Positions 1-9,986 of a stretch of DNA of 64,000 nucleotides are shown here, piece by piece; positions within the stretch are counted from its first letter, which is position 1, and every line of letters begins with the position of its first letter. The notes under the pieces were generated by a model that worked only from the letters and a program-made list of their open reading frames with translations, searched no databases and was not told the DNA's origin. Made by a program: the position numbers and the translations under genes. Source of the DNA: an uncultured Prevotellaceae bacterium (GTDB lineage Bacteria; Bacteroidota; Bacteroidia; Bacteroidales; Bacteroidaceae); contig ONLY01000010.1 in the NCBI GenBank assembly GCA_900318775.1, positions 5,620 to 69,619 of the forward strand. The letters run 5' to 3'.

Positions 1-1400
1 AATGAGTTATTACATTGCCAAAAATCACCATATTTAGTATTTTCTTCATTATGATATAATACAAATGTAGGTTGATTACTAAAATGCCGCATAAAAGAAT
101 TAAGTCTGGCAGTTTTTATATCGTCAATATACGGACTGACGCAAACAAAAAAATTATTACAAGTTATAATACTATCGATAATTGATAGAAGGTGTTGGCT
201 ACTGTAATCATCAATGTCAAGTATATTTGAGAATAAATGAATTGTAAGCACATCACGTTGAACTTTTATATCGGAAGATGCCACATCATCCAACTTTTTG
301 CATACTGTTTTCAGTTTGCCATTTGTGGCAAATTTCCTGCAATGTAGGGCCGCTCTCTTCAGAACAATTTCTGATGGTTCAACCAACGTTATATAGTGAA
401 CGTCTAAAGAGTCGTATTTTTCCAATAAGGTGATAGTCGCCAATCCTTGTCCACATCCCCAATCCACTATATTTACTGGAGTGTCAAAATATTGAGGAAA
501 AGTTGACTCAAACGAACTAATAAGTTTTGCATAATGCATTTTACCATAGCGTTTCATATACTCAAACATTTCCTCTTCTGAATGTAATTGATCCACACCT
601 CGTCCATTGAGAATGCCGTTTGCTCTATCAACACTAATTTGACGAATTGATATGAAATTATTTGGTACACGAGAAAGTGCATCGCAATAATCAGTTCCTT
701 CTTCAATTAACAAGTTGTCTTCTGGATTGACTACAACAGAGCTGATTCTTGTGGTTAAAGTATCTATTTTCTCTTCAATTTGTCGAAATACTGATTGAGA
801 ATTAGATACATCAAGAAGAGAAATATCTTCTATTTGTTTGAGCCAATTGTATTCACCATTATTATTAAGATCACAAAATTTTTGTTTTGCTTCTGTTGCA
901 TAAACAATGTTCGTATTATAAACAATGTGACCATAATAATTAAGAAATGTTACCAGTGCTTTAGAAGGGTTGTCCTCTTCTTCAACAATTGCATCATTCA
1001 ATAATTCACATATTTCATCAAAGCGACCAACTAATTCTTCATTTGAAGATGGACGTGGAAAAAGGAACTTTAGAGCTGCAGTCATCCTCTTATTGATAAG
1101 AATGTCATTCCTTTGGATAATAGTCATTATGCGGGGAATACAACTATGCAAAGCGAATCTTTCACACAAGTCGAGAAGGATTAGAATAAAAGAACGATTT
1201 TCTACGGTTTGAAAGTCATAATGAGAAATGATGCTATTCTTAAGAAGAATTAATCGTTCAATATCATCCTTCTGTTGATATTGCGTTTGATATGGTGCAT
1301 TGAAGAAATCTTGGATAGTCAAGAAATTTCTTTCAAGACTATCCGCAAATGAAGCCACATCACTGGTTTCCTCGAAAAGAGTTTTAAATACTTCTTCCAT
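1..1400 (-). CDS. Partial CDS (C-terminus beyond the window): ~270-aa helical N-terminal region followed by a class I SAM-dependent methyltransferase-like domain
   Basis: My own translation of the minus strand from ATG at 1400-1398 (MEEVFKTLFEETSDV...) stays open to position 1. It is missing from the ORF track because no stop lies in the window. Motif I-like VDWGCGQG maps to ~445-468, followed by LVEPS (acidic end of beta-2) and IHLFSNILD. The start is 2 nt downstream of the preceding gene. Confidence 0.6.
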   Translation of the reverse strand, partial: MEEVFKTLFEETSDVASFADSLERNFLTIQDFFNAPYQTQYQQKDDIERLILLKNSIISHYDFQTVENRSFILILLDLCERFALHSCIPRIMTIIQRNDILINKRMTAALKFLFPRPSSNEELVGRFDEICELLNDAIVEEEDNPSKALVTFLNYYGHIVYNTNIVYATEAKQKFCDLNNNGEYNWLKQIEDISLLDVSNSQSVFRQIEEKIDTLTTRISSVVVNPEDNLLIEEGTDYCDALSRVPNNFISIRQISVDRANGILNGRGVDQLHSEEEMFEYMKRYGKMHYAKLISSFESTFPQYFDTPVNIVDWGCGQGLATITLLEKYDSLDVHYITLVEPSEIVLKRAALHCRKFATNGKLKTVCKKLDDVASSDIKVQRDVLTIHLFSNILDIDDYSSQHLLSIIDSIITCNNFFVCVSPYIDDIKTARLNSFMRHFSNQPTFVLYHNEENTKYGDFWQCNNS

Positions 1401-1402
1401 AA

Positions 1403-3037
1403 TTAAAACAGCTTACTATCTTGGCGTTTTTCTGCACGAAGAATGTAAATAATCAAATCTTCCGTTTTGCTCTGCCTGCCGACTTTGCAACCATATTGCT
1501 TTGCTAATTCTTTCAGCTCTTTAGATTTCAGTTTACATAATTCAATGATTTTTTTTGCATACTCTTCTTCGTTAAAACACGTGTTCTCCTGATTATTTGT
1601 TTGTAAAGAGAAAGTTACTGCGTTTTCCGGAATTGCTATCTCTTTATCTTTTAAAGATAATTGTTCCTTACACTTGTTTAGCTCTTTTTTTAGACGTAGT
1701 ACTTCTGTATCGTTCGTGTCTTTAAATGTCTGAATAGTTTCCTCGTATTCATATGATATCTCCTCTTTCACTAAATATGCAAAAGGTTTAAGAATTGTTT
1801 CAATGATTATTGACGAGAAATCATAGCCAAGAAAATTGACCTTATCTTTTTGCAGAAAAAATGCCAAACAGTTTTTCCACCATTCTTCGGAAAAAAGGAT
1901 TGCTTTTTTTTTATCACATACAATAGTATCAAGTATCTGATATTCTCCTCTCTTTGCTTTTCTACCCGTCAAAGTCTTTACCCAGGAATTGAACAAATCA
2001 AATTCCGTAGATACAATGTTATAGAAAGTGTACCTATAGATACTCTCTATTGTATAGTAGTCAAGCAAAGAATTAAGTCGGTATTTTACATCTTCCGTTT
2101 TATTATCCTTTCTATATTGGTTATTAAATGATGCGTAACCTCTATTATACCCGTAATAAAGAGCACAGCTTTCTTGATATCCTTGCTTGAGACTCGTAAA
2201 ATTGTTTAATATTAGTTCATCGATTTTATGGCGATGAGCTTCTTCACCAACTCCATAATCATATAGAACATAACAAAGATATACGCTGTTTTCAAGGTTA
2301 CTCGGGTCAATAACTTTTGTTAATTTGCTCTTACTGATAAATTGTTTTTTCTCTAAAGCTTCATTTTCTAGGGTTGCATAATCAACGACATGGTCTAGAA
2401 ACGTGGGATGATTATCAAAAACCTTATGAAACTTAGTATCAACACCAGAAATCATCGTCTTCTGACTTGCTATATAAGTGTTGAATTTAGAAAGCAAGTC
2501 AATATAATGAGCAGAATAATTGCATCCATCTTCATGAGCAGTCTTCATCAAGGCCATTGCACCCAATATGCGATTAAACTTGTCATATGATTTTTCTATT
2601 ATCTCTAATAATGGCACAATATTTTCAGGAACTTCGACACCGTTGGTATTTACATCATCAAATGTATTGTTGTTCGAATCAACTAAAGCATTTGGAATAA
2701 AAGCGGTCGAAAGATTAATATTAGAAATGGTTCTTTGTGATTGAGCAACATTTTTAAAATATATCCTTTTAATTCTAGATACAGGTAATGCGCTTTCATA
2801 CAAATAGAAACCTTTTTTTATGTCTACTAATGTTTTTTCTTCATCTGAACTTAAAACAAGTTGTAGACAGCAATCTGAGTCCATACACCCAAAATGATCA
2901 GTAAGCAAAATGAAATTTTCAAATTTGCTTTGAATGTCTGACAGCCTATTCCTATACAATGATGCAGGGAGGATACATGCTCGACCAAAAATCGATGCCA
3001 AAGATGTTGACGATATCGGATAATAATATGTTTTCAT
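1403..3037 (-). CDS. Hypothetical 544-aa protein: unassigned N-terminal and central domains, a coiled-coil segment and a C-terminal SAP/Rho-N-like helix-extended-helix
   Basis: Long ORF in an AT-rich context, 11 nt after the helicase stop. The tail KSKELKELAKQYGCKVGRQSKTEDLIIYIL matches the SAP/Rho_N pattern. It is preceded by the charged heptad-like LRLKKELNKCKEQLSLKDKE. I found no Walker or nuclease motif. Confidence 0.7.
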   Translation of the reverse strand: MKTYYYPISSTSLASIFGRACILPASLYRNRLSDIQSKFENFILLTDHFGCMDSDCCLQLVLSSDEEKTLVDIKKGFYLYESALPVSRIKRIYFKNVAQSQRTISNINLSTAFIPNALVDSNNNTFDDVNTNGVEVPENIVPLLEIIEKSYDKFNRILGAMALMKTAHEDGCNYSAHYIDLLSKFNTYIASQKTMISGVDTKFHKVFDNHPTFLDHVVDYATLENEALEKKQFISKSKLTKVIDPSNLENSVYLCYVLYDYGVGEEAHRHKIDELILNNFTSLKQGYQESCALYYGYNRGYASFNNQYRKDNKTEDVKYRLNSLLDYYTIESIYRYTFYNIVSTEFDLFNSWVKTLTGRKAKRGEYQILDTIVCDKKKAILFSEEWWKNCLAFFLQKDKVNFLGYDFSSIIIETILKPFAYLVKEEISYEYEETIQTFKDTNDTEVLRLKKELNKCKEQLSLKDKEIAIPENAVTFSLQTNNQENTCFNEEEYAKKIIELCKLKSKELKELAKQYGCKVGRQSKTEDLIIYILRAEKRQDSKLF

Positions 3038-3048
3038 AAATACATGGT

Positions 3049-4071
3049 TTATTCAACGACGTTATTTAATTGTGGAATATTGTTATTACTAAATAAATAC
3101 AAATTAGTTCTTGCCCTTGTCACAGCAACATAGAAATCGTTCCAATCTAAGACTTCAAATCTATTGCATAAATAATCCATTGAGCCAAAATCTGGAACAA
3201 GAACGGTATCAAATTCCAAACCTTTGGCAGACTTGAAGGTCGTAATGTGAACATTATCAATTGGAGGACAACCATTAGGGAACTCTTTCTGATCTTCATA
3301 ATAGAAACTATGTGCTATTTCCATTTCATCAAGAATATCGTGATATTCTTTAACTGTATTCTTAAACGGAAGTAGGATAGCTATATTATGAGTATCTGTC
3401 CTAAAAGTTTCGATTATTTCTTTAATTGCATCGTCTCGTTTGCTCCTGGCATTTTCATTAAACAAAGGATTACCATCTGTTACTATCAATGTGGGTTTTT
3501 CTCCAGGGTTGTTAGCCAATGCATCAAGAGTATTCTGCGGTATATAAGCGTTAGGAAAGGCAACACGAGCAAATGTCATAATGGCCAAAGTGCTTCTGAA
3601 ATTTCTATCAAGTACATATTCTACATTATTTTCAAATCGCTCTTCCAATTCTTCTTTAGTTGAAGAATGTTCAGGATAAAGAATCTGAGCATCATCTGCT
3701 CCATACGAAATGCTAAATCCAGAAATCTGGTCAAAGTATTCGGCGTCAAGGTCCTGTGCCTCATCTATTATAATTTCACTAAAATTCTCTCTTCTCTTAG
3801 GACGACCTGCATATGCAGAACGAACGTTCCTGGATGCTTCGGGATTTCTCAAACGACAACATTCAGACAAATATCTGGCTAAAGTTGTTGTATAAGTTAT
3901 AAGCAGACTTCTACTACCATTTCCATGGTTCGCAAGATGACGATAAAGCGAAACTACACTTTTTCCTGTACCTGGACCACCAGAAAGTGCAATTTGTTCA
4001 GTTTCATTAAGCGCTGCCTGTTGAGACAGTGTTAAATCATCAATGTTTGGTAATCTGAAATAGTATGGCAT
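3049..4071 (-). CDS. Minimal UvrD/Rep-like superfamily 1 helicase (340 aa)
   Basis: The full SF1 motif series is readable. Q-like LTLSQQAAL; I GGPGTGKS (nt 3958-3981); Ia LLITYTTTLARYL; II IIIDEAQD; III YGADDAQILY; IV LDRNFRST; V TTFKSAKGLEFDTVLV; VI YVAVTRARTNLYL. Confidence 0.85.
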   Translation of the reverse strand: MPYYFRLPNIDDLTLSQQAALNETEQIALSGGPGTGKSVVSLYRHLANHGNGSRSLLITYTTTLARYLSECCRLRNPEASRNVRSAYAGRPKRRENFSEIIIDEAQDLDAEYFDQISGFSISYGADDAQILYPEHSSTKEELEERFENNVEYVLDRNFRSTLAIMTFARVAFPNAYIPQNTLDALANNPGEKPTLIVTDGNPLFNENARSKRDDAIKEIIETFRTDTHNIAILLPFKNTVKEYHDILDEMEIAHSFYYEDQKEFPNGCPPIDNVHITTFKSAKGLEFDTVLVPDFGSMDYLCNRFEVLDWNDFYVAVTRARTNLYLFSNNNIPQLNNVVE

Positions 4072-4082
4072 AACTATATAAA

Positions 4083-4601
4083 TTAAAATACATCACCTGA
4101 AAAAGATTTGTCATTAAGATTGCGAGGATAGAAAGACAAATATAATTCGTCATATAAACCTAATCGAATTAGTGCATCGATGGCTTGATTTACTCCACTT
4201 TTTGCAGCCTGTTTATAGAGTTTAATCGCTCTATTCAAATCGCTTTTAATACCTTTGCCCTGTTCAAGAGCAACAGCATAGTTGTATTTCCCAAAAGGAT
4301 GCCCAGCAGCTGCGGCTTTTTGATAGTAGTGAACCGCTTTTTCATAATTAACTTCAATCCCATTGCCATAAAAATAGCTCACACCTAAGTTGTTATATGT
4401 CTCAGGGGTGGTGGGCATTCCACTTTCAACAATATACTCCCAGCACTCAATAGCCTCTGCAAACATTTGACTTCTTGCAAAATCTGTTCCAATATTGCTT
4501 ATCTCTATTACATCGCCATTCAGAGCTGCCTGCATTCTGTTTTCATCATAGTAAAAACAATTATAATAGTAGGCAAGTATTTCTTCTAAATTCTTTTTCA
4601 T
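4083..4601 (-). CDS. Sel1-like repeat (SLR/TPR-family) protein, no signal peptide
   Basis: Consecutive SLR units: YNNLGVSYFYGNGIEVNYEKAVHYYQKAAAAGHPFGKYNYAVALEQGKGIKSDLNRAIKLYKQAAKSGVNQA. The N-terminus MKKNLEEILAYYY is not hydrophobic. Confidence 0.85.
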   Translation of the reverse strand: MKKNLEEILAYYYNCFYYDENRMQAALNGDVIEISNIGTDFARSQMFAEAIECWEYIVESGMPTTPETYNNLGVSYFYGNGIEVNYEKAVHYYQKAAAAGHPFGKYNYAVALEQGKGIKSDLNRAIKLYKQAAKSGVNQAIDALIRLGLYDELYLSFYPRNLNDKSFSGDVF

Positions 4602-4608
4602 TTATTTA

Positions 4609-5676
4609 TTATTTCCCAGTTATGGTATCAGCATAGGGGTTTTCCTTATGTTTTTTCCAATTATTGATAGCCAATTCTTTGGATGCATTAGCATAACAAT
4701 ACTCACAAAGATGCGGACAGGTGTTATATTCACCTATATCTTTGGATGCCATACATTCACAGAATTGCCTTTGTCCGGGATCTTTCTTGTGGATACTGAT
4801 AAAGTATTTGTTGTTTGGCAGCAATATTGCTCCTTGTGGAAGTTCTGGAACTTCAAACAAAGATGGAGCAGGAACGTTCTCAACCTTCACCTTCATGAAG
4901 TCCATCAGTTCCTTATCATTCCATGCAAGTTTAGCAATAAGGTCGCCATCAACACATCGATTATGTAGAATTCCATATTTACCGATGTCTATCTTTTCAC
5001 CACAGGTTGCAAGTTGATATTTCCATCCTCTTTCCTTATTCATAATAGAAAGTTTTTGTGCAAATTCTTCCATCTGTTCAACCTCCCATTCTCGATACGG
5101 AATACCGTTTGTTTCCAGATTGTGCTTTACTTTTTTATACATAGCAATGTCTGCATAACTGAATACAAGCTTTTCTGTATAGTCTTTCAGTTGATCGCCA
5201 ATACTTTTTACTTTTACTAACAATTTTTCAACAGAAATATCATCAGTCAATATCATTGGGTCAAACCTCCAAATAACAGTCCCCTTGCCTAATTGCTCAA
5301 CAAGCATTTTGAAAGTTTCTATACGATTAGCAAGAGAAGGTACCTTTTCAAGTTTCTCTTGTTCGTAGTCATTTAAGGTGTATTGAATGTAACACTTAAT
5401 GTTTCGTTCCTTCAGTATGTGTAGATACGGCAACAAGGGACGAGGATTTTTTGACCAAAACACAATGAATCGTGTTTTCTTGTACGATACATAGCCTTTT
5501 ACACCATTAAACGGATTAGTCCATGCGGAATAACCCACCTTCAACCGATTGAAGAACCAATCGGCATAGAAGGCCGGAATATCCGTACTTCTGCTTGCGG
5601 AGACAATCATCGGCACCTGCATCTGTACCACTTCTCCATTTTCTTTCGGTAGATTCTCTTTATTCCAAGTTGCCAT
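4609..5676 (-). CDS. DUF1848-family protein (radical-SAM-like; Cys cluster at the C-terminus)
   Basis: N-terminal VSASRSTDIPAFYADWFFNRL, then NPFN, FWSKNPRP and RFDP. C-terminal FCECMASKDIGEYNTCPHLCEYCYAN contains CX3CX2C (C320, C324, C327; nt ~4696-4719). This is the signature I associate with Pfam DUF1848. Confidence 0.8.
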   Translation of the reverse strand: MATWNKENLPKENGEVVQMQVPMIVSASRSTDIPAFYADWFFNRLKVGYSAWTNPFNGVKGYVSYKKTRFIVFWSKNPRPLLPYLHILKERNIKCYIQYTLNDYEQEKLEKVPSLANRIETFKMLVEQLGKGTVIWRFDPMILTDDISVEKLLVKVKSIGDQLKDYTEKLVFSYADIAMYKKVKHNLETNGIPYREWEVEQMEEFAQKLSIMNKERGWKYQLATCGEKIDIGKYGILHNRCVDGDLIAKLAWNDKELMDFMKVKVENVPAPSLFEVPELPQGAILLPNNKYFISIHKKDPGQRQFCECMASKDIGEYNTCPHLCEYCYANASKELAINNWKKHKENPYADTITGK

Positions 5677-5721: not shown

Positions 5722-5729
5722 CAAAGATA
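5722..5729 (-). promoter_or_regulatory. Bacteroidetes-type -7 promoter box (TATCTTTG) for the island operon
   Basis: Reverse complement of caaagata, ~45 nt upstream of the DUF1848 start. The same TAnnTTTG motif recurs upstream of most genes in the window. Confidence 0.5.
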
Positions 5730-6263: not shown

Positions 6264-6325
6264 ACAAGGAGCACTAAAGGAAGTGTAAAGGAAGAGTAAA
6301 GGAACACTAAAGGAGCACTAAAGGA
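6264..6325. repeat. Six direct repeats with an exact 11-bp period: one ACAAGGA plus five TAAAGGA, separated by 4-nt spacers
   Basis: Heptamers start at 6264, 6275, 6286, 6297, 6308 and 6319. The period is not a multiple of 3 and no ORF covers the array. Confidence 0.8.
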
Positions 6326-6393
6326 GGACTCTTGCAAGTACTTTGCCTTTTTCAATATTCGTCAGCATGCGCGGGTGTGGACTGTTTTTTACT

Positions 6394-6436: not shown

Positions 6437-6512
6437 GGGTGGAGGGTGGGACTCGAACCCACGACATTCAGAACCACAATCTGACGCTCTAACCAACTGA
6501 ACTACATCCACC
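6437..6512 (-). tRNA. tRNA-His (anticodon GTG) with encoded G-1 pairing to C73
   Basis: Hand-folded cloverleaf: anticodon stem TCAGA/TCTGA, loop TTGTGGT, T-arm GTGGG-TTCGAGT-CCCAC, D-arm GTTC/GAGC. There is one U6-C67 mismatch in the acceptor stem. CCA is not fully encoded. Confidence 0.88.
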
Positions 6513-6665: not shown

Positions 6666-7544
6666 CTATTTGTAGAATTCCCTGCGACCTGCGCTGAGGG
6701 TGTTCTTCATCAGAGAACAGATGGTCATGGGGCCTACGCCACCCGGCACAGGAGTGATGAAAGAGCACTTGGGCGCCACATTCTCAAAATCGACGTCGCC
6801 ATTCAGGCGGAAACCTGATTTACGAGTGGCGTCTGGAACGCGTGTTGTGCCTACGTCGACTATAACAGCACCTTCCTTCACCATGTCTGCTGTCACAAAG
6901 TTTGGGCTTCCAATTGCGGCTATGATGATGTCCGCTTGCAGACATTCCTCTTTCAAAGTTTTTGAATGGCTGTGACAAACGGTAACTGTTGCATCGCCAT
7001 ACTGTTTCTGCATCATCAGTTGGGCCATGGGCTTGCCTACGATGTTGGAGCGTCCGAGAATGACGCATTTCTTTCCGCTTGTCTCGATGTTGTAGCGCTT
7101 CAGCAGGGTGATGATGCCCAGTGGGGTGGCCGAGATGTAGCAAGGGAGCCCAATGGCCATGCGTCCCACGTTGATTGGGTGGAATCCGTCCACGTCCTTG
7201 CGGTAGTCTATGGCTTCAATGATTTTCTGCTCGGAGATGTGCTTGGGAAGTGGAAGCTGTACGATGAAACCATCCACATCGGCGTCATTATTAAGCTTTT
7301 CCACTTGCTCCAGGAGAAAATCTTCGGTGATGTCTTCTTCAAAGCGGAGGAGGGTAGATGTGAAGCCGCAAGCCTCGCATGCCAAGACCTTATTCTTTAC
7401 GTAGGTCTCGCTGCCACCGTCGTGTCCTACAAGAATGGCTGCCAAATGCGGGCGCTTGCCACCAGCATCTACGATTCTCTTTACTTCTTCTGCAATTTCA
7501 GCCTTGATGGCTGTTGCTGTTGCTTTTCCGTCTATCAGTTGCAT
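6666..7544 (-). CDS. folD: Bifunctional methylenetetrahydrofolate dehydrogenase/cyclohydrolase
   Basis: 292 aa. [10 protein letters not shown]..., [25 protein letters not shown] and [10 protein letters not shown] are all FolD hallmarks. Confidence 0.95.
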
Positions 7545-7586
7545 TGCCTTGTGTTGTTGTGTAAGGTGAAACTTTATTCGTTGTGT

Positions 7587-8942
7587 TTAAAAGCGTGGCA
7601 TTCCGCCTTTCATTCCTTTCAAGCGCTGCATCTGCGCCATTGCCTGCGCCATCTTGGGGCTGGTCATCTGACGCATCATCTTGCGCATCTGCTCAAACTG
7701 TTTCGTGATGCGGTTTACTTCATCAATTGACACGCCTGCGCCTTTGGCAATACGCATTTTGCGTGACATATTGATGCACTCGGGATGCTCACGCTCATAG
7801 GGGGTCATCGAACCGATCATGGCTTCTACGGACTTGAAGGCATTGTCATCAATCTCAACATCCTTCAAAGCCTTGCCCACGCCCGGAATCATAGAAGCGA
7901 GGTCCTTGATGTTGCCCATCTTTTTGATTTGATTGATCTGTCCGAGGAAGTCGTTGTAATCGAACTTGTTCTTCGCAATCTTTTTTTCCAGGCGCTTGGC
8001 TTCCTCTTCGTCGAATTGCTGTTGGGCGCGCTCCACAAACGATACGATGTCGCCCATGCCCAGAATGCGGTCTGCCATGCGGTCGGGGTGGAACACGTCA
8101 AAGGCTTCCATCTTCTCGCCTGTACCTACAAACTTGATGGGTTTTGTCACTACGGTGCGGATGGAAAGTGCTGCACCGCCCCGTGTGTCACCGTCTAGCT
8201 TTGTGAGGATTACGCCGTCTATATCTAGACGCTCATTGAAGGTCTTTGCTGTGTTGACAGCGTCCTGACCGGTCATCGCATCCACCACGAGCAAAGTTTC
8301 ATTCGGATTGACGGCATTTTTGATTTGCTCGATTTGCTGCATCAGCTCTTCGTCAATCGACTGGCGTCCAGCTGTGTCGACAATCACTACGTCATATCCC
8401 TTTGCTTTTGCCTCGCTGATGGCGTTCTTCGCAACAGCAATTGGGTCTGTGGCACCTTCTTCGAGATAGCAAGGTACTTCCACTTGCTCAGCAAGAACAC
8501 GCAATTGCTCCATAGCTGCAGGACGGAAGGTGTCGCACGCAGCCAAGAGTGGTTTCTTGTGATTTTGTGTCTTCAGGCGCAAAGCCAGTTTGCCGGACAT
8601 GGTAGTCTTACCTGCACCATTCAAACCTGCCATCAGAATGACCGTGGGGTGTCCTGTCAAGTTTAGATCTGTTGCCTGTCCACCCATCAGTTGAGCCAAT
8701 TCGTCATGTACGATCTTGACCATCATCTGACCAGGCTTCACGGCTGTCAGCACATTCTGTCCCAGCGCCTTCTGCTTCACTGTATCTGTGAAGGTTTTGG
8801 CCACCTTGTAGTTTACGTCTGCCTCGAGGAGGGCTTTGCGCACGTCCTTCAGCGTTTCTGCCACATTGATTTCGGTGATTTTGCCTTCACCCTTCAGTAT
8901 TTTGAAAGACCGCTCAAGTCTTTCGCTCAAGTTTTCGAACAT
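7587..8942 (-). CDS. ffh: Signal recognition particle protein Ffh
   Basis: 451 aa. SRP54 G domain with GLNGAGKTT, DTAGR and TKLDGD, plus a Met-rich C-terminal M domain. Confidence 0.95.
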   Translation of the reverse strand: MFENLSERLERSFKILKGEGKITEINVAETLKDVRKALLEADVNYKVAKTFTDTVKQKALGQNVLTAVKPGQMMVKIVHDELAQLMGGQATDLNLTGHPTVILMAGLNGAGKTTMSGKLALRLKTQNHKKPLLAACDTFRPAAMEQLRVLAEQVEVPCYLEEGATDPIAVAKNAISEAKAKGYDVVIVDTAGRQSIDEELMQQIEQIKNAVNPNETLLVVDAMTGQDAVNTAKTFNERLDIDGVILTKLDGDTRGGAALSIRTVVTKPIKFVGTGEKMEAFDVFHPDRMADRILGMGDIVSFVERAQQQFDEEEAKRLEKKIAKNKFDYNDFLGQINQIKKMGNIKDLASMIPGVGKALKDVEIDDNAFKSVEAMIGSMTPYEREHPECINMSRKMRIAKGAGVSIDEVNRITKQFEQMRKMMRQMTSPKMAQAMAQMQRLKGMKGGMPRF

Positions 8943-9771: not shown

Positions 9772-9883
9772 CTAAACGAAATGGGTAAGTCCTATACGGC
9801 CAGCTCCCTTGGAATTCCCCCAGGGCTTGACCGCAGCAAGGGTACTCGGTTGTAGCGGCGCGATGTAGATCGCTTACCCACCC

Positions 9884-9957
9884 GCCTCTTTAGCTCAGTT
9901 GGCCAGAGCACGTGATTTGTAATCTCGGGGTCGTTGGTTCGAATCCGACAAGAGGCT
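9884..9957 (+). tRNA. tRNA-Thr (anticodon TGT)
   Basis: Hand-folded: acceptor GCCTCTT/AAGAGGC, D-arm GCTC/GAGC, anticodon loop TTTGTAA, T-arm GTTGG-TTCGAAT-CCGAC. One U29-U41 mismatch in the anticodon stem. CCA is not encoded. Confidence 0.85.
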
Positions 9958-9986
9958 CAACAATTCATCGTCTGATGAAAAAGATA

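What the first reader, a model, noticed from the sequence alone, without database searches (positions are those of the whole stretch)
4609..5676. Operon-leading DUF1848 protein with a radical-SAM-type CX3CX2C at the C-terminus instead of the N-terminus
Seen: the C-terminal sequence FCECMASKDIGEYNTCPHLCEYCYAN has three Cys spaced CX3CX2C (aa 320/324/327), with two further Cys 13-15 residues upstream. The N-terminal motifs (SASRSTDIPAFYADWF, NPFN, FWSKNPRP, RFDP) are those I associate with DUF1848. Established: CX3CX2C is the canonical 4Fe-4S/SAM-binding triad of radical SAM enzymes. As far as I recall, Pfam describes DUF1848 as uncharacterised with a radical-SAM-like Cys cluster at its C-terminus. 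Inference: an uncharacterised Fe-S and possibly radical enzyme is the first and presumably key gene of an accessory operon with a helicase and a methyltransferase. It could act on DNA (spore-photoproduct-lyase-like chemistry) or make a modified nucleotide in the way viperins do.
Basis: partly seen in the sequence, partly recalled or inferred. Interest (0 to 1): 0.7.

Follow-up and report, generated by a model that had tools for sequence, protein, structure and literature searches.

The report
Permuted radical-SAM-like DUF1848 defence gene
The gene is a typical member of the large uncharacterised DUF1848 family. [quoted passage not shown]

Summary
A 355-aa ORF on the minus strand (4609..5676) matches Pfam DUF1848 over the full profile (E 9e-88). 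It carries C320-x3-C324-x-Y-C327 near its C-terminus. These three Cys, plus C225, C241, C306 and C308, are invariant in 83 diverse relatives.

No Radical_SAM profile hit and no solved-structure match is significant. Profile-profile comparison with genuine spore photoproduct lyases (SPL) gives two local matches well above shuffled controls, in swapped order:
- The DUF1848 barrel (aa 94-192) aligns to SPL 190-287.
- The DUF1848 C-terminal Cys loop aligns to SPL's N-terminal cluster loop.

This points to a circularly permuted SPL-like radical SAM enzyme that probably acts on DNA. No biochemistry was done.

The gene leads a tight operon: DUF1848, Sel1, a minimal SF1 helicase, an ADP-ribosyltransferase/glycohydrolase fusion, and a class-I methyltransferase-like protein cut by the window edge. 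The operon lies in a 33-36% GC mobile island next to tRNA-His.

Across 80 genomes the recurrent partner is that methyltransferase-like domain (47 loci), usually fused to nuclease-helicase giants of defence type.

Verdict: an ordinary member of a known but uncharacterised family, in an undescribed candidate defence system. Interest is moderate to high.

The parts
4609..5676 (-). DUF1848 gene (355 aa), first gene of the operon
   Evidence: ORF. Pfam PF08902 E 9.1e-88, full-length profile. PADLOC RTasDUF1848 E 1.7e-38. AlphaFold2 model has pLDDT 97 and pTM 0.93, with six beta-alpha units.
4642..4779 (-). C-terminal module, aa 300-345: C306-x-C308, the SKDIG loop, the cluster loop C320-x3-C324-x-Y326-C327-Y328 (codons at 4696-4719), then a helix at 333-345
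   Evidence: These residues are invariant in 83 diverse homologues. The module aligns to the SPL cluster loop C91/C95/Y97/C98/Y99 and the S77-K78 loop. Score 19.3 against a shuffle maximum of 14.9.
5232..5397 (-). Barrel block, aa 94-148 (IQYTLNDYE...EK...RIETF...VIWRFDPM)
   Evidence: Best-supported homology to SPL residues 190-240. hhalign P 1.9e-4. The sub-region scores 32.9 with P 8e-7, against a shuffle mean of 9.7 and maximum of 15.8.
5722..5729 (-). Candidate Bacteroidetes -7 promoter box TATCTTTG (TAnnTTTG), 46 nt upstream of the ATG
   Evidence: It is the only TAnnTTTG in the 760-bp upstream non-coding stretch. This is a consensus match only.
4083..4601 (-). Sel1-repeat protein (172 aa), second gene
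   Evidence: Pfam Sel1 E 2.6e-19. Gap of 7 bp to the DUF1848 stop. Absent from the eight otherwise matching operons in other genomes.
3049..4071 (-). Minimal SF1/UvrD-like helicase or ATPase (340 aa), third gene
   Evidence: Pfam UvrD_C, UvrD_C_2 and AAA_19. PADLOC GajB-type UvrD models. Walker A GPGTGKS, motif II DEAQD and motif VI VTRAR are visible in the translation.
1403..3037 (-). ADP-ribosyltransferase + ADP-ribose glycohydrolase fusion (544 aa), fourth gene
   Evidence: Pfam 2CompART E 1.2e-32 (aa 3-119) and 2CompARG E 1.7e-15 (aa 148-309). No DarT or DarG model matches.
1..1400 (-). Fifth gene: class-I SAM-methyltransferase-like protein (501 aa in full; the last 35 codons lie beyond the window's left edge). 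Motif I DWGCGQG is at 444-464.
   Evidence: Open frame of 466 codons from 1400 to the window edge. The full gene is seen in L002 14277-15782. There are weak hits, only to methyltransferase families. A profile of the domain finds CmoA/YecO in the PDB at E 0.002.
6437..6511 (-). tRNA-His(GTG), flanking the low-GC island on the core-genome side
   Evidence: ARAGORN and Rfam. GC is 33-36% below about 6000 and 44-53% for the rest of the window.
6280..6330 (-). Five 11-bp tandem CCTTTA-containing repeats at the point where identical islands in different contigs lose similarity
   Evidence: Sequence, repeat positions, and an alignment of L001/L002/L003 upstream regions.

Best explanation
The ORF encodes a typical DUF1848 (PF08902) protein. 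DUF1848 is best read as a circularly permuted relative of spore-photoproduct-lyase-type (COG1533) radical SAM enzymes. The (beta/alpha)6 barrel comes first. The strand, substrate loop, CX3CX-Tyr-C cluster loop and following helix, which precede the barrel in SPL, come last. By inference, C320, C324 and C327 hold a [4Fe-4S] cluster whose fourth iron binds SAM, giving a 5'-deoxyadenosyl radical that acts on DNA. The four extra invariant cysteines (C225 and C241 from the barrel, C306 and C308 from the C-terminal module) probably form a second metal or Fe-S site that fastens the displaced module to the barrel. The gene is the first of five in a tight operon: DUF1848, Sel1, a minimal SF1 helicase, an ART/ARG fusion, and a methyltransferase-like protein. 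The operon sits in a low-GC, mobile defence island next to tRNA-His. Across genomes the constant set is DUF1848, this methyltransferase-like SAM-binding domain and a helicase. The DNA-attacking part varies: a PD-(D/E)XK, NERD or Vsr-like nuclease in most loci, and an ART with its ARG here. I therefore propose that DUF1848 and the methyltransferase-like domain carry out a SAM-dependent DNA-modifying or DNA-processing step of an anti-phage or conflict system. Shown: family membership, motif invariance, the two-segment permuted similarity to SPL, operon structure, and context statistics. Inferred: Fe-S and SAM binding, radical chemistry, DNA as substrate, and a defence role.
For: Family membership: Pfam E 9e-88. 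The family is large, with 3580 50%-identity cluster representatives at E<=1e-3. Motif: seven invariant Cys, plus Y326 and Y328, among 83 relatives at 34-56% identity. The motif has the CX3CX-aromatic-C form described for SPL and radical SAM enzymes (PMC3467042). Fold: the AlphaFold2 model (pLDDT 97) has six beta-alpha units, then the Cys-rich loops, then one helix. Similarity to SPL: hhalign against genuine SPLs gives DUF 94-192 aligned to SPL 190-287 at P 1.9e-4. In separate runs the two hits scored 35.1 and 31.3, against 16.6 for the reversed control and a maximum of 22.8 in 30 column shuffles. Sub-region tests gave 32.9 (shuffle maximum 15.8) for the barrel block and 19.3 (shuffle maximum 14.9) for the Cys module. 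Residue correspondences inside the significant blocks: T100 aligns to SPL S196 (S195 in the solved G. thermodenitrificans SPL, whose numbering is one lower; a SAM carboxylate/ribose ligand). D139-P140 aligns to A235-P236 (the adenine/ribose contact). Also N102:N198, Y104:Y201, E110:E207, R118:R216, C320/C324/C327:C91/C95/C98, Y326:Y97, Y328:Y99 and S311-K312:S77-K78, the thymine-holding loop. Other sources: JGI names relatives 'DNA repair photolyase', and weak viral Foldseek hits are enriched in radical SAM proteins. DNA and defence context: tight operon; low GC; the identical 8-gene block sits in three different flanks. The methyltransferase-like domain is a same-strand neighbour in 47 of 80 loci, usually 2-10 bp downstream inside 850-1750-aa nuclease-helicase proteins. 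Those helicases match DpdF, NERD+UvrD or MkoA defence models. Natural fusions join DUF1848 to an N6/N4 DNA methylase, a clamp-loader-like AAA+ domain and canonical Radical_SAM domains. DUF1848 is the partner of the methylase-fused UG25 reverse transcriptases (PMC9226505; PADLOC). The neighbouring Mrr-nSTAND3 gene matches the PADLOC candidate PDC-S73.
Against: The Pfam Radical_SAM profile matches only at E 0.18-0.34. No PDB chain matches by sequence or by profile. Foldseek finds nothing at E<1e-3 in the PDB; the best TM-score is about 0.25, with generic TIM-barrel and Rossmann folds. The hhalign probability is only 30-47%, because the SPL alignment is shallow. The region that would hold SPL's GGE-substitute (T31-D32 to S143-D144) and the SAM-carboxylate lysine (K76 to K175) is not above chance on its own: score 8.8 against a shuffle mean of 9.7. 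Those two correspondences rest on position only. SPL's catalytic H-donor Cys141 is Arg29 here, so the chemistry cannot be SPL's. I could not inspect model coordinates, so the Cys geometry is unverified. Some DUF1848 genes stand alone, without the partners. No experiment on any family member was found in the searchable literature.
Confidence: 0.6

Rival explanations
1. DUF1848 is a non-radical Fe-S (or Zn) DNA enzyme. The cysteines hold a structural or DNA-sensing cluster, as in EndoIII/MutY, AddB, Dna2 or Cas4. The barrel, with its conserved acidic and basic residues, is a hydrolytic nuclease or glycosylase.
For: There is no significant Radical_SAM profile hit. Structural neighbours are only generic TIM barrels. 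D32, E110, D139, K76 and R137 are invariant and lie at strand ends, as in metal-dependent barrel nucleases. Seven invariant Cys could fill two four-ligand sites if another residue takes part. Neighbours are nucleases and helicases.
Against: The motif is the three-Cys CX3CX-aromatic-C type with both flanking tyrosines, and it aligns to the SPL cluster loop above shuffled controls. The barrel block that aligns to SPL includes the SAM-contacting serine and alanine positions. DUF1848 is repeatedly fused to, or paired with, SAM-using domains.
Confidence: 0.15
2. DUF1848 is a viperin-like or QueE-like radical SAM enzyme that acts on a free nucleotide. It would make a chain terminator, a modified base precursor or a signal, and would not act on DNA.
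For: The gene sits in a defence island. Radical SAM nucleotide chemistry is established for prokaryotic viperins (my own knowledge). The DpdF-like helicase partners recall the 7-deazaguanine Dpd system, whose precursor pathway uses the radical SAM enzyme QueE (my own knowledge).
Against: No similarity to viperin or QueE appeared in any search. The only detectable radical SAM relative is the DNA-acting SPL, including its thymine-holding S-K loop. Fusions are to a DNA methylase and a clamp-loader-like ATPase.
Confidence: 0.1
3. DUF1848 is a stand-alone housekeeping DNA repair lyase, a true 'DNA repair photolyase'. Its position ahead of the helicase/ART/methyltransferase genes would be incidental.
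For: JGI names relatives 'DNA repair photolyase'. Several loci have DUF1848 without the usual partners (L017, L021, L023, L037, L063, L064). A Planktothrix plasmid copy lies near AlkB.
Against: Gene gaps of 2-11 bp and a single upstream promoter-like box indicate co-transcription. The same gene order recurs in eight distant genomes at 52-57% identity. The methyltransferase-like domain partners DUF1848 in 47 of 80 loci. The island is low-GC and mobile. SPL's catalytic Cys is absent. Spore photoproduct forms in endospore DNA, and Bacteroidales are not known to form endospores (my own knowledge).
Confidence: 0.1

Closest known systems
Pfam PF08902 (DUF1848), annotated in RefSeq as 'DUF1848 domain-containing protein'
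   Same: Full-length, high-scoring member (E 9e-88). It shares every invariant residue of the family, including the seven cysteines.
   Different: Nothing distinguishes it from the family. It has the roughly 40-residue insert (aa 262-300, a beta-hairpin in the model) typical of the Bacteroidales clade; other clades lack it or have a different insert.
Spore photoproduct lyase SplB / COG1533 radical SAM 'DNA repair photolyase' (structure described in PMC3467042)
   Same: It has the CX3CX-Tyr-C-Tyr cluster loop and the preceding S-K loop. A conserved barrel block holds the SAM-contacting Ser/Thr and the Ala/Asp-Pro positions. It has a (beta/alpha)6 architecture and DNA-linked contexts.
   Different: The order of the modules is swapped, so the cluster loop is at the C-terminus. 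SPL's N-terminal alpha/beta domain is missing. The H-donor Cys141 is Arg. There are four extra invariant Cys. The similarity is remote (hhalign probability 30-47%), and the SPL and Radical_SAM Pfam models do not match.
DUF1848 accessory protein of UG25 defence-associated reverse transcriptases (PADLOC model RTasDUF1848; Mestre et al. 2022, PMC9226505)
   Same: Same protein family (E 1.7e-38). In both settings DUF1848 is paired with a methyltransferase domain.
   Different: No reverse transcriptase is present in this operon. The partners here are a helicase, an ART/ARG fusion and a free-standing methyltransferase-like protein.
DarHTG (Liu-DS3): DarT + ARG-fold DarG3 + UvrD-like helicase DarH, shown to protect E. 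coli from phages (PMC13069673)
   Same: The sub-module of a short UvrD-like helicase, an ADP-ribosyltransferase and an ADP-ribosylglycohydrolase-fold partner is the same idea.
   Different: The ART here is Pfam 2CompART, with no DarT model hit. ART and ARG are fused in one protein. DUF1848, Sel1 and the methyltransferase-like gene are extra.
Nuclease-helicase defence proteins with a methyltransferase domain: DpdF-like helicases of the Dpd system, the NERD+UvrD candidate C3a187, and MkoA of Mokosh
   Same: In most other genomes the gene right after DUF1848 encodes such a protein. The methyltransferase-like domain of this operon's fifth gene is fused to its N-terminus.
   Different: In this window the giant protein is replaced by separate helicase, ART/ARG and methyltransferase-like genes. 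None of the named systems includes DUF1848.

Membership tests
DUF1848 (PF08902) | Significant full-length match to the family profile | tested here: met
   E 9.1e-88, 294.9 bits against a cut-off of 30.5, profile positions 1-262 of 262.
   C306, C308, C320, C324 and C327 are present and invariant in 83 relatives.
Radical SAM superfamily | CX3CX2C with an aromatic residue before the third Cys | tested here: met
   C320-PHL-C324-E-Y326-C327. It is invariant across the family and aligns to SPL C91/C95/Y97/C98.
Radical SAM superfamily | Match to the Radical_SAM profile PF04055 at or above the curated threshold | tested here: not met
   E 0.34 (11.5 bits against a cut-off of 29.5) for the native sequence, and E 0.18 for an artificially un-permuted one. 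Both cover only profile positions 5-20.
Radical SAM superfamily | Partial or full (beta/alpha) TIM-like barrel with the cluster loop at its top | tested here: inconclusive
   The model has six beta-alpha units. Foldseek gives only weak TIM-barrel, Rossmann and radical SAM hits. The coordinates could not be inspected, and the aligner is not permutation-aware.
Radical SAM superfamily | SAM-binding residues (the GGE motif or its substitute, a carboxylate ligand, ribose/adenine contacts) | tested here: inconclusive
   T100 (SPL S196) and D139-P140 (SPL A235-P236) fall in the significant block. T31-D32 (SPL S143-D144) and K76 (SPL K175) are invariant and in the right order, but that region scores at chance level.
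Radical SAM superfamily | [4Fe-4S] cluster and reductive SAM cleavage to 5'-deoxyadenosine | not testable with these tools
   This needs anaerobic purification, spectroscopy and an activity assay.
Spore photoproduct lyase (SPL, PF20903 / COG1533) | Family-level sequence match with SPL topology (N-terminal alpha/beta domain, then cluster loop, then barrel) | tested here: not met
   There are only remote local similarities (P 2e-4 and 6e-4), in permuted order. No SPL Pfam hit.
Spore photoproduct lyase (SPL, PF20903 / COG1533) | Catalytic H-atom-donor cysteine (B. subtilis C141) and the tyrosines Y97 and Y99 | tested here: not met
   The tyrosines are conserved (Y326, Y328). The aligned position of C141 is R29, although this comes from the low-confidence part of the alignment.
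DarHTG / DarTG toxin-antitoxin defence (for the helicase-ART-ARG sub-module) | DarT-family ADP-ribosyltransferase | tested here: not met
   No DarT model hit in PADLOC or in Pfam, even at E<=10. The ART is 2CompART.
DarHTG / DarTG toxin-antitoxin defence (for the helicase-ART-ARG sub-module) | ARG-fold antitoxin plus a short UvrD-like helicase | tested here: met
   2CompARG E 1.7e-15. A 340-aa SF1 helicase with UvrD_C hits and intact ATPase motifs. Compared with the description in PMC13069673.
Class I SAM-dependent methyltransferases (for the conserved partner domain) | Motif I GxGxG and an acidic residue after strand 2; match to methyltransferase profiles | tested here: inconclusive
   DWGCGQG and L-I/V-E-P-S are conserved in 31 homologues. 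Hits are sub-threshold, only to methyltransferase families (7 Pfam families; best E 8e-6). CmoA/YecO in the PDB matches at E 0.002.

The most novel reading that the evidence does not exclude
DUF1848 and its methyltransferase-fold partner form the core of a previously undescribed class of defence systems that use radical SAM chemistry directly on DNA. In one version they write a self-mark that the attached nuclease-helicase or ART effector reads. In the other they act as a radical lyase that strips or breaks phage DNA, for example at 5-substituted pyrimidines, given that the SPL thymine-holding loop is retained. The circular permutation plus a second Cys4 site would also be a new architecture for the radical SAM superfamily.
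Probability: 0.3. Interest if true: 0.85.

Novelty: new variant of a known kind. Interest (0 to 1): 0.6.

Why it matters
DUF1848 is a very large family. There are 3580 clusters at 50% identity, and thousands of near-identical copies in gut and rumen Bacteroidales. I found no characterised member. If it is a circularly permuted, two-site radical SAM enzyme acting on DNA, it would add a new architecture to that superfamily. It would also be a second DNA-acting branch beside SPL. Its near-constant pairing with a divergent methyltransferase-fold domain and with defence-type nuclease-helicases points to an unrecognised, widespread anti-phage module in the human and animal gut microbiota. Here the nuclease is replaced by a DarHTG-like helicase/ART/ARG set. 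The candidate residues and the operon given here make this directly testable.

Tried and rejected
1. Sequence and profile searches of the PDB with the protein and with the 83-sequence profile found only chance hits.
2. Foldseek of the high-confidence model against the PDB found nothing at E<1e-3. Against BFVD it found one weak unnamed hit and a scatter of radical SAM proteins. I do not use this as proof of fold.
3. Pfam scans of the C-terminal 60 residues and of an artificially un-permuted sequence gave Radical_SAM only at E 0.18-0.34.
4. The extension of the SPL alignment into the first two strands (T31-D32, K76) is not above shuffled controls. I therefore downgraded those correspondences to positional hints.
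5. A viperin or QueE relationship: no hit of any kind, so I rejected it as a family assignment.
6. DarT membership of the ART: no hit.
7. Literature: 'DUF1848' occurs in only three held papers, none functional. Searches for the origin of the Pfam '2-component ART/ARG' names found nothing usable. The 2015 ART review could not be opened.
A 12-sequence alignment worked.
9. I could not obtain model coordinates, so Cys-Cys distances and a permutation-aware superposition were not possible.
10. Phage and plasmid collections hold few copies: 8 and 6 records. A phage or plasmid origin is therefore not indicated.
Full report
**1. Observation**

The feature is real and lies at the stated coordinates, but on the minus strand. 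A 355-aa ORF starts with ATG at 5676 and stops at 4609-4611.
- The quoted C-terminal peptide is present at aa 305-330.
- The only CX3CX2C is C320-PHL-C324-EY-C327. C306 and C308 lie 14 and 12 residues upstream of C320, and further cysteines are at 95, 225 and 241.
- The quoted N-terminal motifs are all present.
- Pfam PF08902 (DUF1848) matches over its whole length: E 9.1e-88, profile positions 1-262 of 262.
- The PADLOC model for the DUF1848 partner of defence-associated reverse transcriptases also matches at E 1.7e-38.

**2. The motif is a family hallmark, not chance**

- An exhaustive HMMER search found 3580 50%-identity cluster representatives at E<=1e-3.
- The word-indexed search was saturated by more than 8000 relatives. 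The best 120 were 76-99% identical and came from gut and rumen metagenomes.
- I aligned 83 full-length representatives that are only 34-56% identical to the query. The invariant columns are D32, K76, Y104, E110, R137, D139, P140, G315, Y326 and Y328, plus seven cysteines: C225, C241, C306, C308, C320, C324 and C327.
- The C-terminal consensus is C-x-C-x2-SKDIG-x-Y-x-TC-x-H-x-C-x-YCYA.
- So there is a three-Cys CX3CX-aromatic-C triad plus four further conserved Cys. Two of these come from the barrel and two from the C-terminal segment.

**3. Is it a radical SAM enzyme? Standard tests**

The standard tests do not show it.
- The Radical_SAM Pfam model reaches only E 0.34 on the native sequence, or E 0.18 on an artificially un-permuted sequence. 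Both hits cover only the profile positions of the Cys motif.
- No PDB chain matches the sequence or the 83-sequence profile.
- AlphaFold2 with that alignment gives a very confident model: pLDDT 97, pTM 0.93. Its six strand-helix units have strands at 24-27, 70-75, 94-100, 134-141, 169-174 and 221-224. They are followed by helices, a hairpin at 283-293, Cys-rich loops and a final helix at 333-345.
- Foldseek finds no PDB match at E<1e-3. The best TM-score is about 0.25, to generic TIM barrels and Rossmann folds, with one radical SAM enzyme at rank 40.
- The viral library gives weak hits enriched in radical SAM proteins.
- A sequential aligner is a poor tool if the fold is permuted, and I could not access the model coordinates.

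**4. Comparison with spore photoproduct lyase (SPL)**

JGI labels relatives 'DNA repair photolyase', and the motif resembles that of SPL. I therefore fetched genuine SPLs, using a remembered SplB sequence only as bait. All hits carry the SPL Pfam domain and SPL names. I then compared profiles.
- hhalign finds two separate local matches.
  - DUF1848 97-127 aligns to SPL 193-225 (score 35.1). With realignment this extends to 94-192 against 190-287.
  - DUF1848 320-328 aligns to SPL 91-99 (score 31.3).
  - The reversed control scores 16.6, and 30 column shuffles reach at most 22.8.
- The session's own profile tool gives P 1.9e-4 and probability 47% for the first match.
- Each region was also tested alone.
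  - The barrel block scores 32.9 (P 8e-7; shuffles: mean 9.7, maximum 15.8).
  - The Cys module scores 19.3 (shuffles: maximum 14.9).
  - The first two strands (aa 20-92) and the fifth strand score at chance level.
- The N-terminal two-thirds of DUF1848 thus matches the C-terminal two-thirds of SPL, and the C-terminus of DUF1848 matches the N-terminal cluster loop of SPL. That is the pattern of a circular permutation.

**5. Residue correspondences**

SPL residue roles are taken from the SPL structure paper (PMC3467042). SPL numbers below are those of the aligned Bacillus-type SPL; residue numbers in that structure are one lower.

Inside the significant blocks:
- T100 aligns to S196 (S195 in the structure), which orients the SAM carboxylate and contacts the ribose and adenine.
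- D139-P140 aligns to A235-P236 (A234 in the structure), a backbone contact to the adenine and ribose.
- N102, Y104, E110 and R118 align to identical SPL residues.
- C320/C324/C327 align to C91/C95/C98.
- Y326 aligns to Y97, the aromatic residue packing on the cluster.
- Y328 aligns to Y99 (Y98 in the structure), which lies beside the substrate.
- S311-K312 align to S77-K78, part of the loop that holds the 3' thymine.

Outside the significant blocks, so positional hints only:
- T31-D32 fall opposite S143-D144, which replace the GGE motif in SPL.
- K76 falls opposite K175, the SAM carboxylate ligand.
- R29 falls opposite the H-donor C141.

C225, C241, C306 and C308 have no SPL counterpart. I infer that they form a second metal or Fe-S site tying the relocated module to the barrel.

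**6. The operon**

Downstream on the same strand, with gaps of 7, 11, 11 and 2 bp:
- a Sel1-repeat protein (4083..4601; Pfam E 2.6e-19);
- a 340-aa minimal SF1/UvrD-like helicase with intact Walker A, DEAQ and motif VI (3049..4071);
- a 544-aa fusion of the Pfam '2-component system' ADP-ribosyltransferase and ADP-ribose glycohydrolase domains (1403..3037; E 1.2e-32 and 1.7e-15);
- a fifth gene that runs off the window's left edge (1..1400).

The full fifth protein (501 aa, seen in identical contigs) has motif I DWGCGQG and an L-V-E-P-S motif II. It has only sub-threshold hits, all to class-I methyltransferases. A profile of the domain finds CmoA/YecO at E 0.002 in the PDB.

Upstream there are 760 non-coding bases with a single TAnnTTTG box, 46 nt from the ATG.

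**7. Island and mobility**

- GC content is 33-36% from 1 to about 6000, against 44-53% for the rest of the window.
- The host is a Bacteroidales, shown by a Bacteroidales small SRP RNA.
- tRNA-His (6437..6511, minus strand) flanks the island.
- The exact protein occurs on many metagenomic contigs. There the same eight-gene block continues with a Schlafen/AlbA_2 protein, an HTH protein and an Mrr-nSTAND3 protein. The block lies in three unrelated upstream contexts.
- The sequences are near-identical up to about 590-640 bp upstream of the ATG and then diverge, next to five 11-bp tandem repeats.
- The nSTAND3 protein is a full-length match to the PADLOC candidate system PDC-S73 (E 7.6e-141).
- This is a mobile defence island.

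**8. Context in other genomes**

In 80 loci from GTDB species representatives (45-81% identity; mostly Bacteroidales, with a few Desulfovibrionaceae, Verrucomicrobia, Kiritimatiellae and Denitrovibrio):
- The methyltransferase-like domain is a same-strand neighbour in 47 loci. Many of the remaining loci are truncated contigs.
- Usually it is the N-terminal domain of an 850-1750-aa protein starting 2-10 bp after DUF1848.
- That protein continues with a Vsr/DUF559-like, NERD or PD-(D/E)XK nuclease and an SF2 (DEAD) or SF1 helicase.
- The helicases match the defence models DpdF (E 1.7e-59), NERD+UvrD (C3a187) and MkoA.
- Eight loci share the window's order (DUF1848, SF1 helicase, ART/ARG, methyltransferase-like protein) but lack Sel1. 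Their DUF1848 proteins are 52-57% identical to the query.
- Natural fusions join DUF1848 to an N6/N4 DNA methylase, a DNA polymerase III delta'-like AAA+ domain and canonical Radical_SAM domains.
- The literature records DUF1848 as the partner of UG25 reverse transcriptases that carry an N-terminal methylase domain (PMC9226505).
- Annotated records show a DNA/RNA non-specific endonuclease or AlkB nearby. RefSeq still names the protein 'DUF1848 domain-containing protein'.
- The family is rare in phage records (8 of 50,697) and plasmid records (6 of 72,556).

**9. Interpretation**

- The constant set is DUF1848, a methyltransferase-fold SAM-binding domain and a helicase.
- The DNA-attacking part varies. 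It is a nuclease in most loci and an ART with its ARG here.
- The helicase/ART/ARG sub-module parallels DarHTG, a recently validated anti-phage system with a UvrD-like helicase lacking the 2B domain, DarT and an ARG-fold antitoxin (PMC13069673).
- The ART here is not a DarT by any model, and it is fused to its ARG.
- I therefore propose that DUF1848 is a permuted SPL-like radical SAM enzyme that works on DNA. Together with the methyltransferase-like domain, it would supply a SAM-dependent modification or processing step in a modular defence system.
- Whether that step marks self DNA, damages or de-modifies foreign DNA, or repairs collateral damage cannot be decided from sequence.

**10. Rivals**

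- A non-radical Fe-S nuclease or glycosylase (0.15).
- A nucleotide-modifying viperin-like enzyme (0.10).
- An unrelated housekeeping repair lyase (0.10).

Details are in the rival entries.

**11. Novelty and score**

- The protein is an ordinary member of a known, uncharacterised Pfam family.
- I did not find the following described anywhere:
  - the two-segment, permuted similarity to SPL;
  - the four extra invariant Cys;
  - the systematic link to a divergent methyltransferase-fold domain and defence-type nuclease-helicases;
  - this five-gene variant with a DarHTG-like module.
- I rate it a new variant of a known kind, with interest 0.6.
- The homology to SPL is remote and the chemistry is untested.

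Noticed in passing
window 6280-6330 and 6437-6511: Five 11-bp tandem repeats containing CCTTTA lie between tRNA-His and the DUF1848 promoter region. This is exactly where contigs carrying the identical island in different genomic contexts stop being alike. It is a candidate attachment or arm site of the mobile island.
   Followed up: partly
window 9776-9958 (+): A Bacteroidales small SRP RNA (Rfam RF04183, 115.5 bits) ends one base before tRNA-Thr(TGT) starts. This suggests a shared transcript.
   Followed up: no
L002 15813-20236 (continuation of the island beyond the window's left edge): The island continues with a Schlafen/AlbA_2 + HATPase_c_4 protein (554 aa), an XRE-type HTH protein (95 aa) and an Mrr_cat + nSTAND3 protein (749 aa). 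The last is a full-length match to the PADLOC candidate defence system PDC-S73 (E 7.6e-141).
   Followed up: partly
proteins P0158, P0167, P0186, P0216 (from the representative search): There are natural fusions of DUF1848 with a canonical Radical_SAM domain (three proteins), with a DNA polymerase III delta'-like AAA+ domain, and with an N6/N4 DNA methylase.
   Followed up: partly
L024 7995-9248 and 13572-14630; L034 5766-6407: One genome locus carries two DUF1848 paralogues 4 kb apart. Another has a small canonical radical SAM protein (213 aa, CX3CX2C at aa 33) overlapping the end of the giant methyltransferase-like/helicase partner.
   Followed up: no
L001 6454-8406: In one contig the identical island lies next to an ADP-ribosylglycohydrolase gene and a NUDIX-winged-helix regulator. 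This is the pairing described as an ARG-centred counter-ADP-ribosylation system in PMC9503650.
   Followed up: no
window 6966-7730 (+): A 254-aa ORF lies antisense to folD (6666..7544) and overlaps the end of ffh. It is Cys/His-rich and low in complexity, and is most likely not a gene.
   Followed up: no
window 4083-4601 (-): The Sel1-repeat gene between DUF1848 and the helicase is absent from all eight otherwise matching operons in other genomes. It appears to be a lineage-specific insertion. The N-terminus does not look like a signal peptide.
   Followed up: partly
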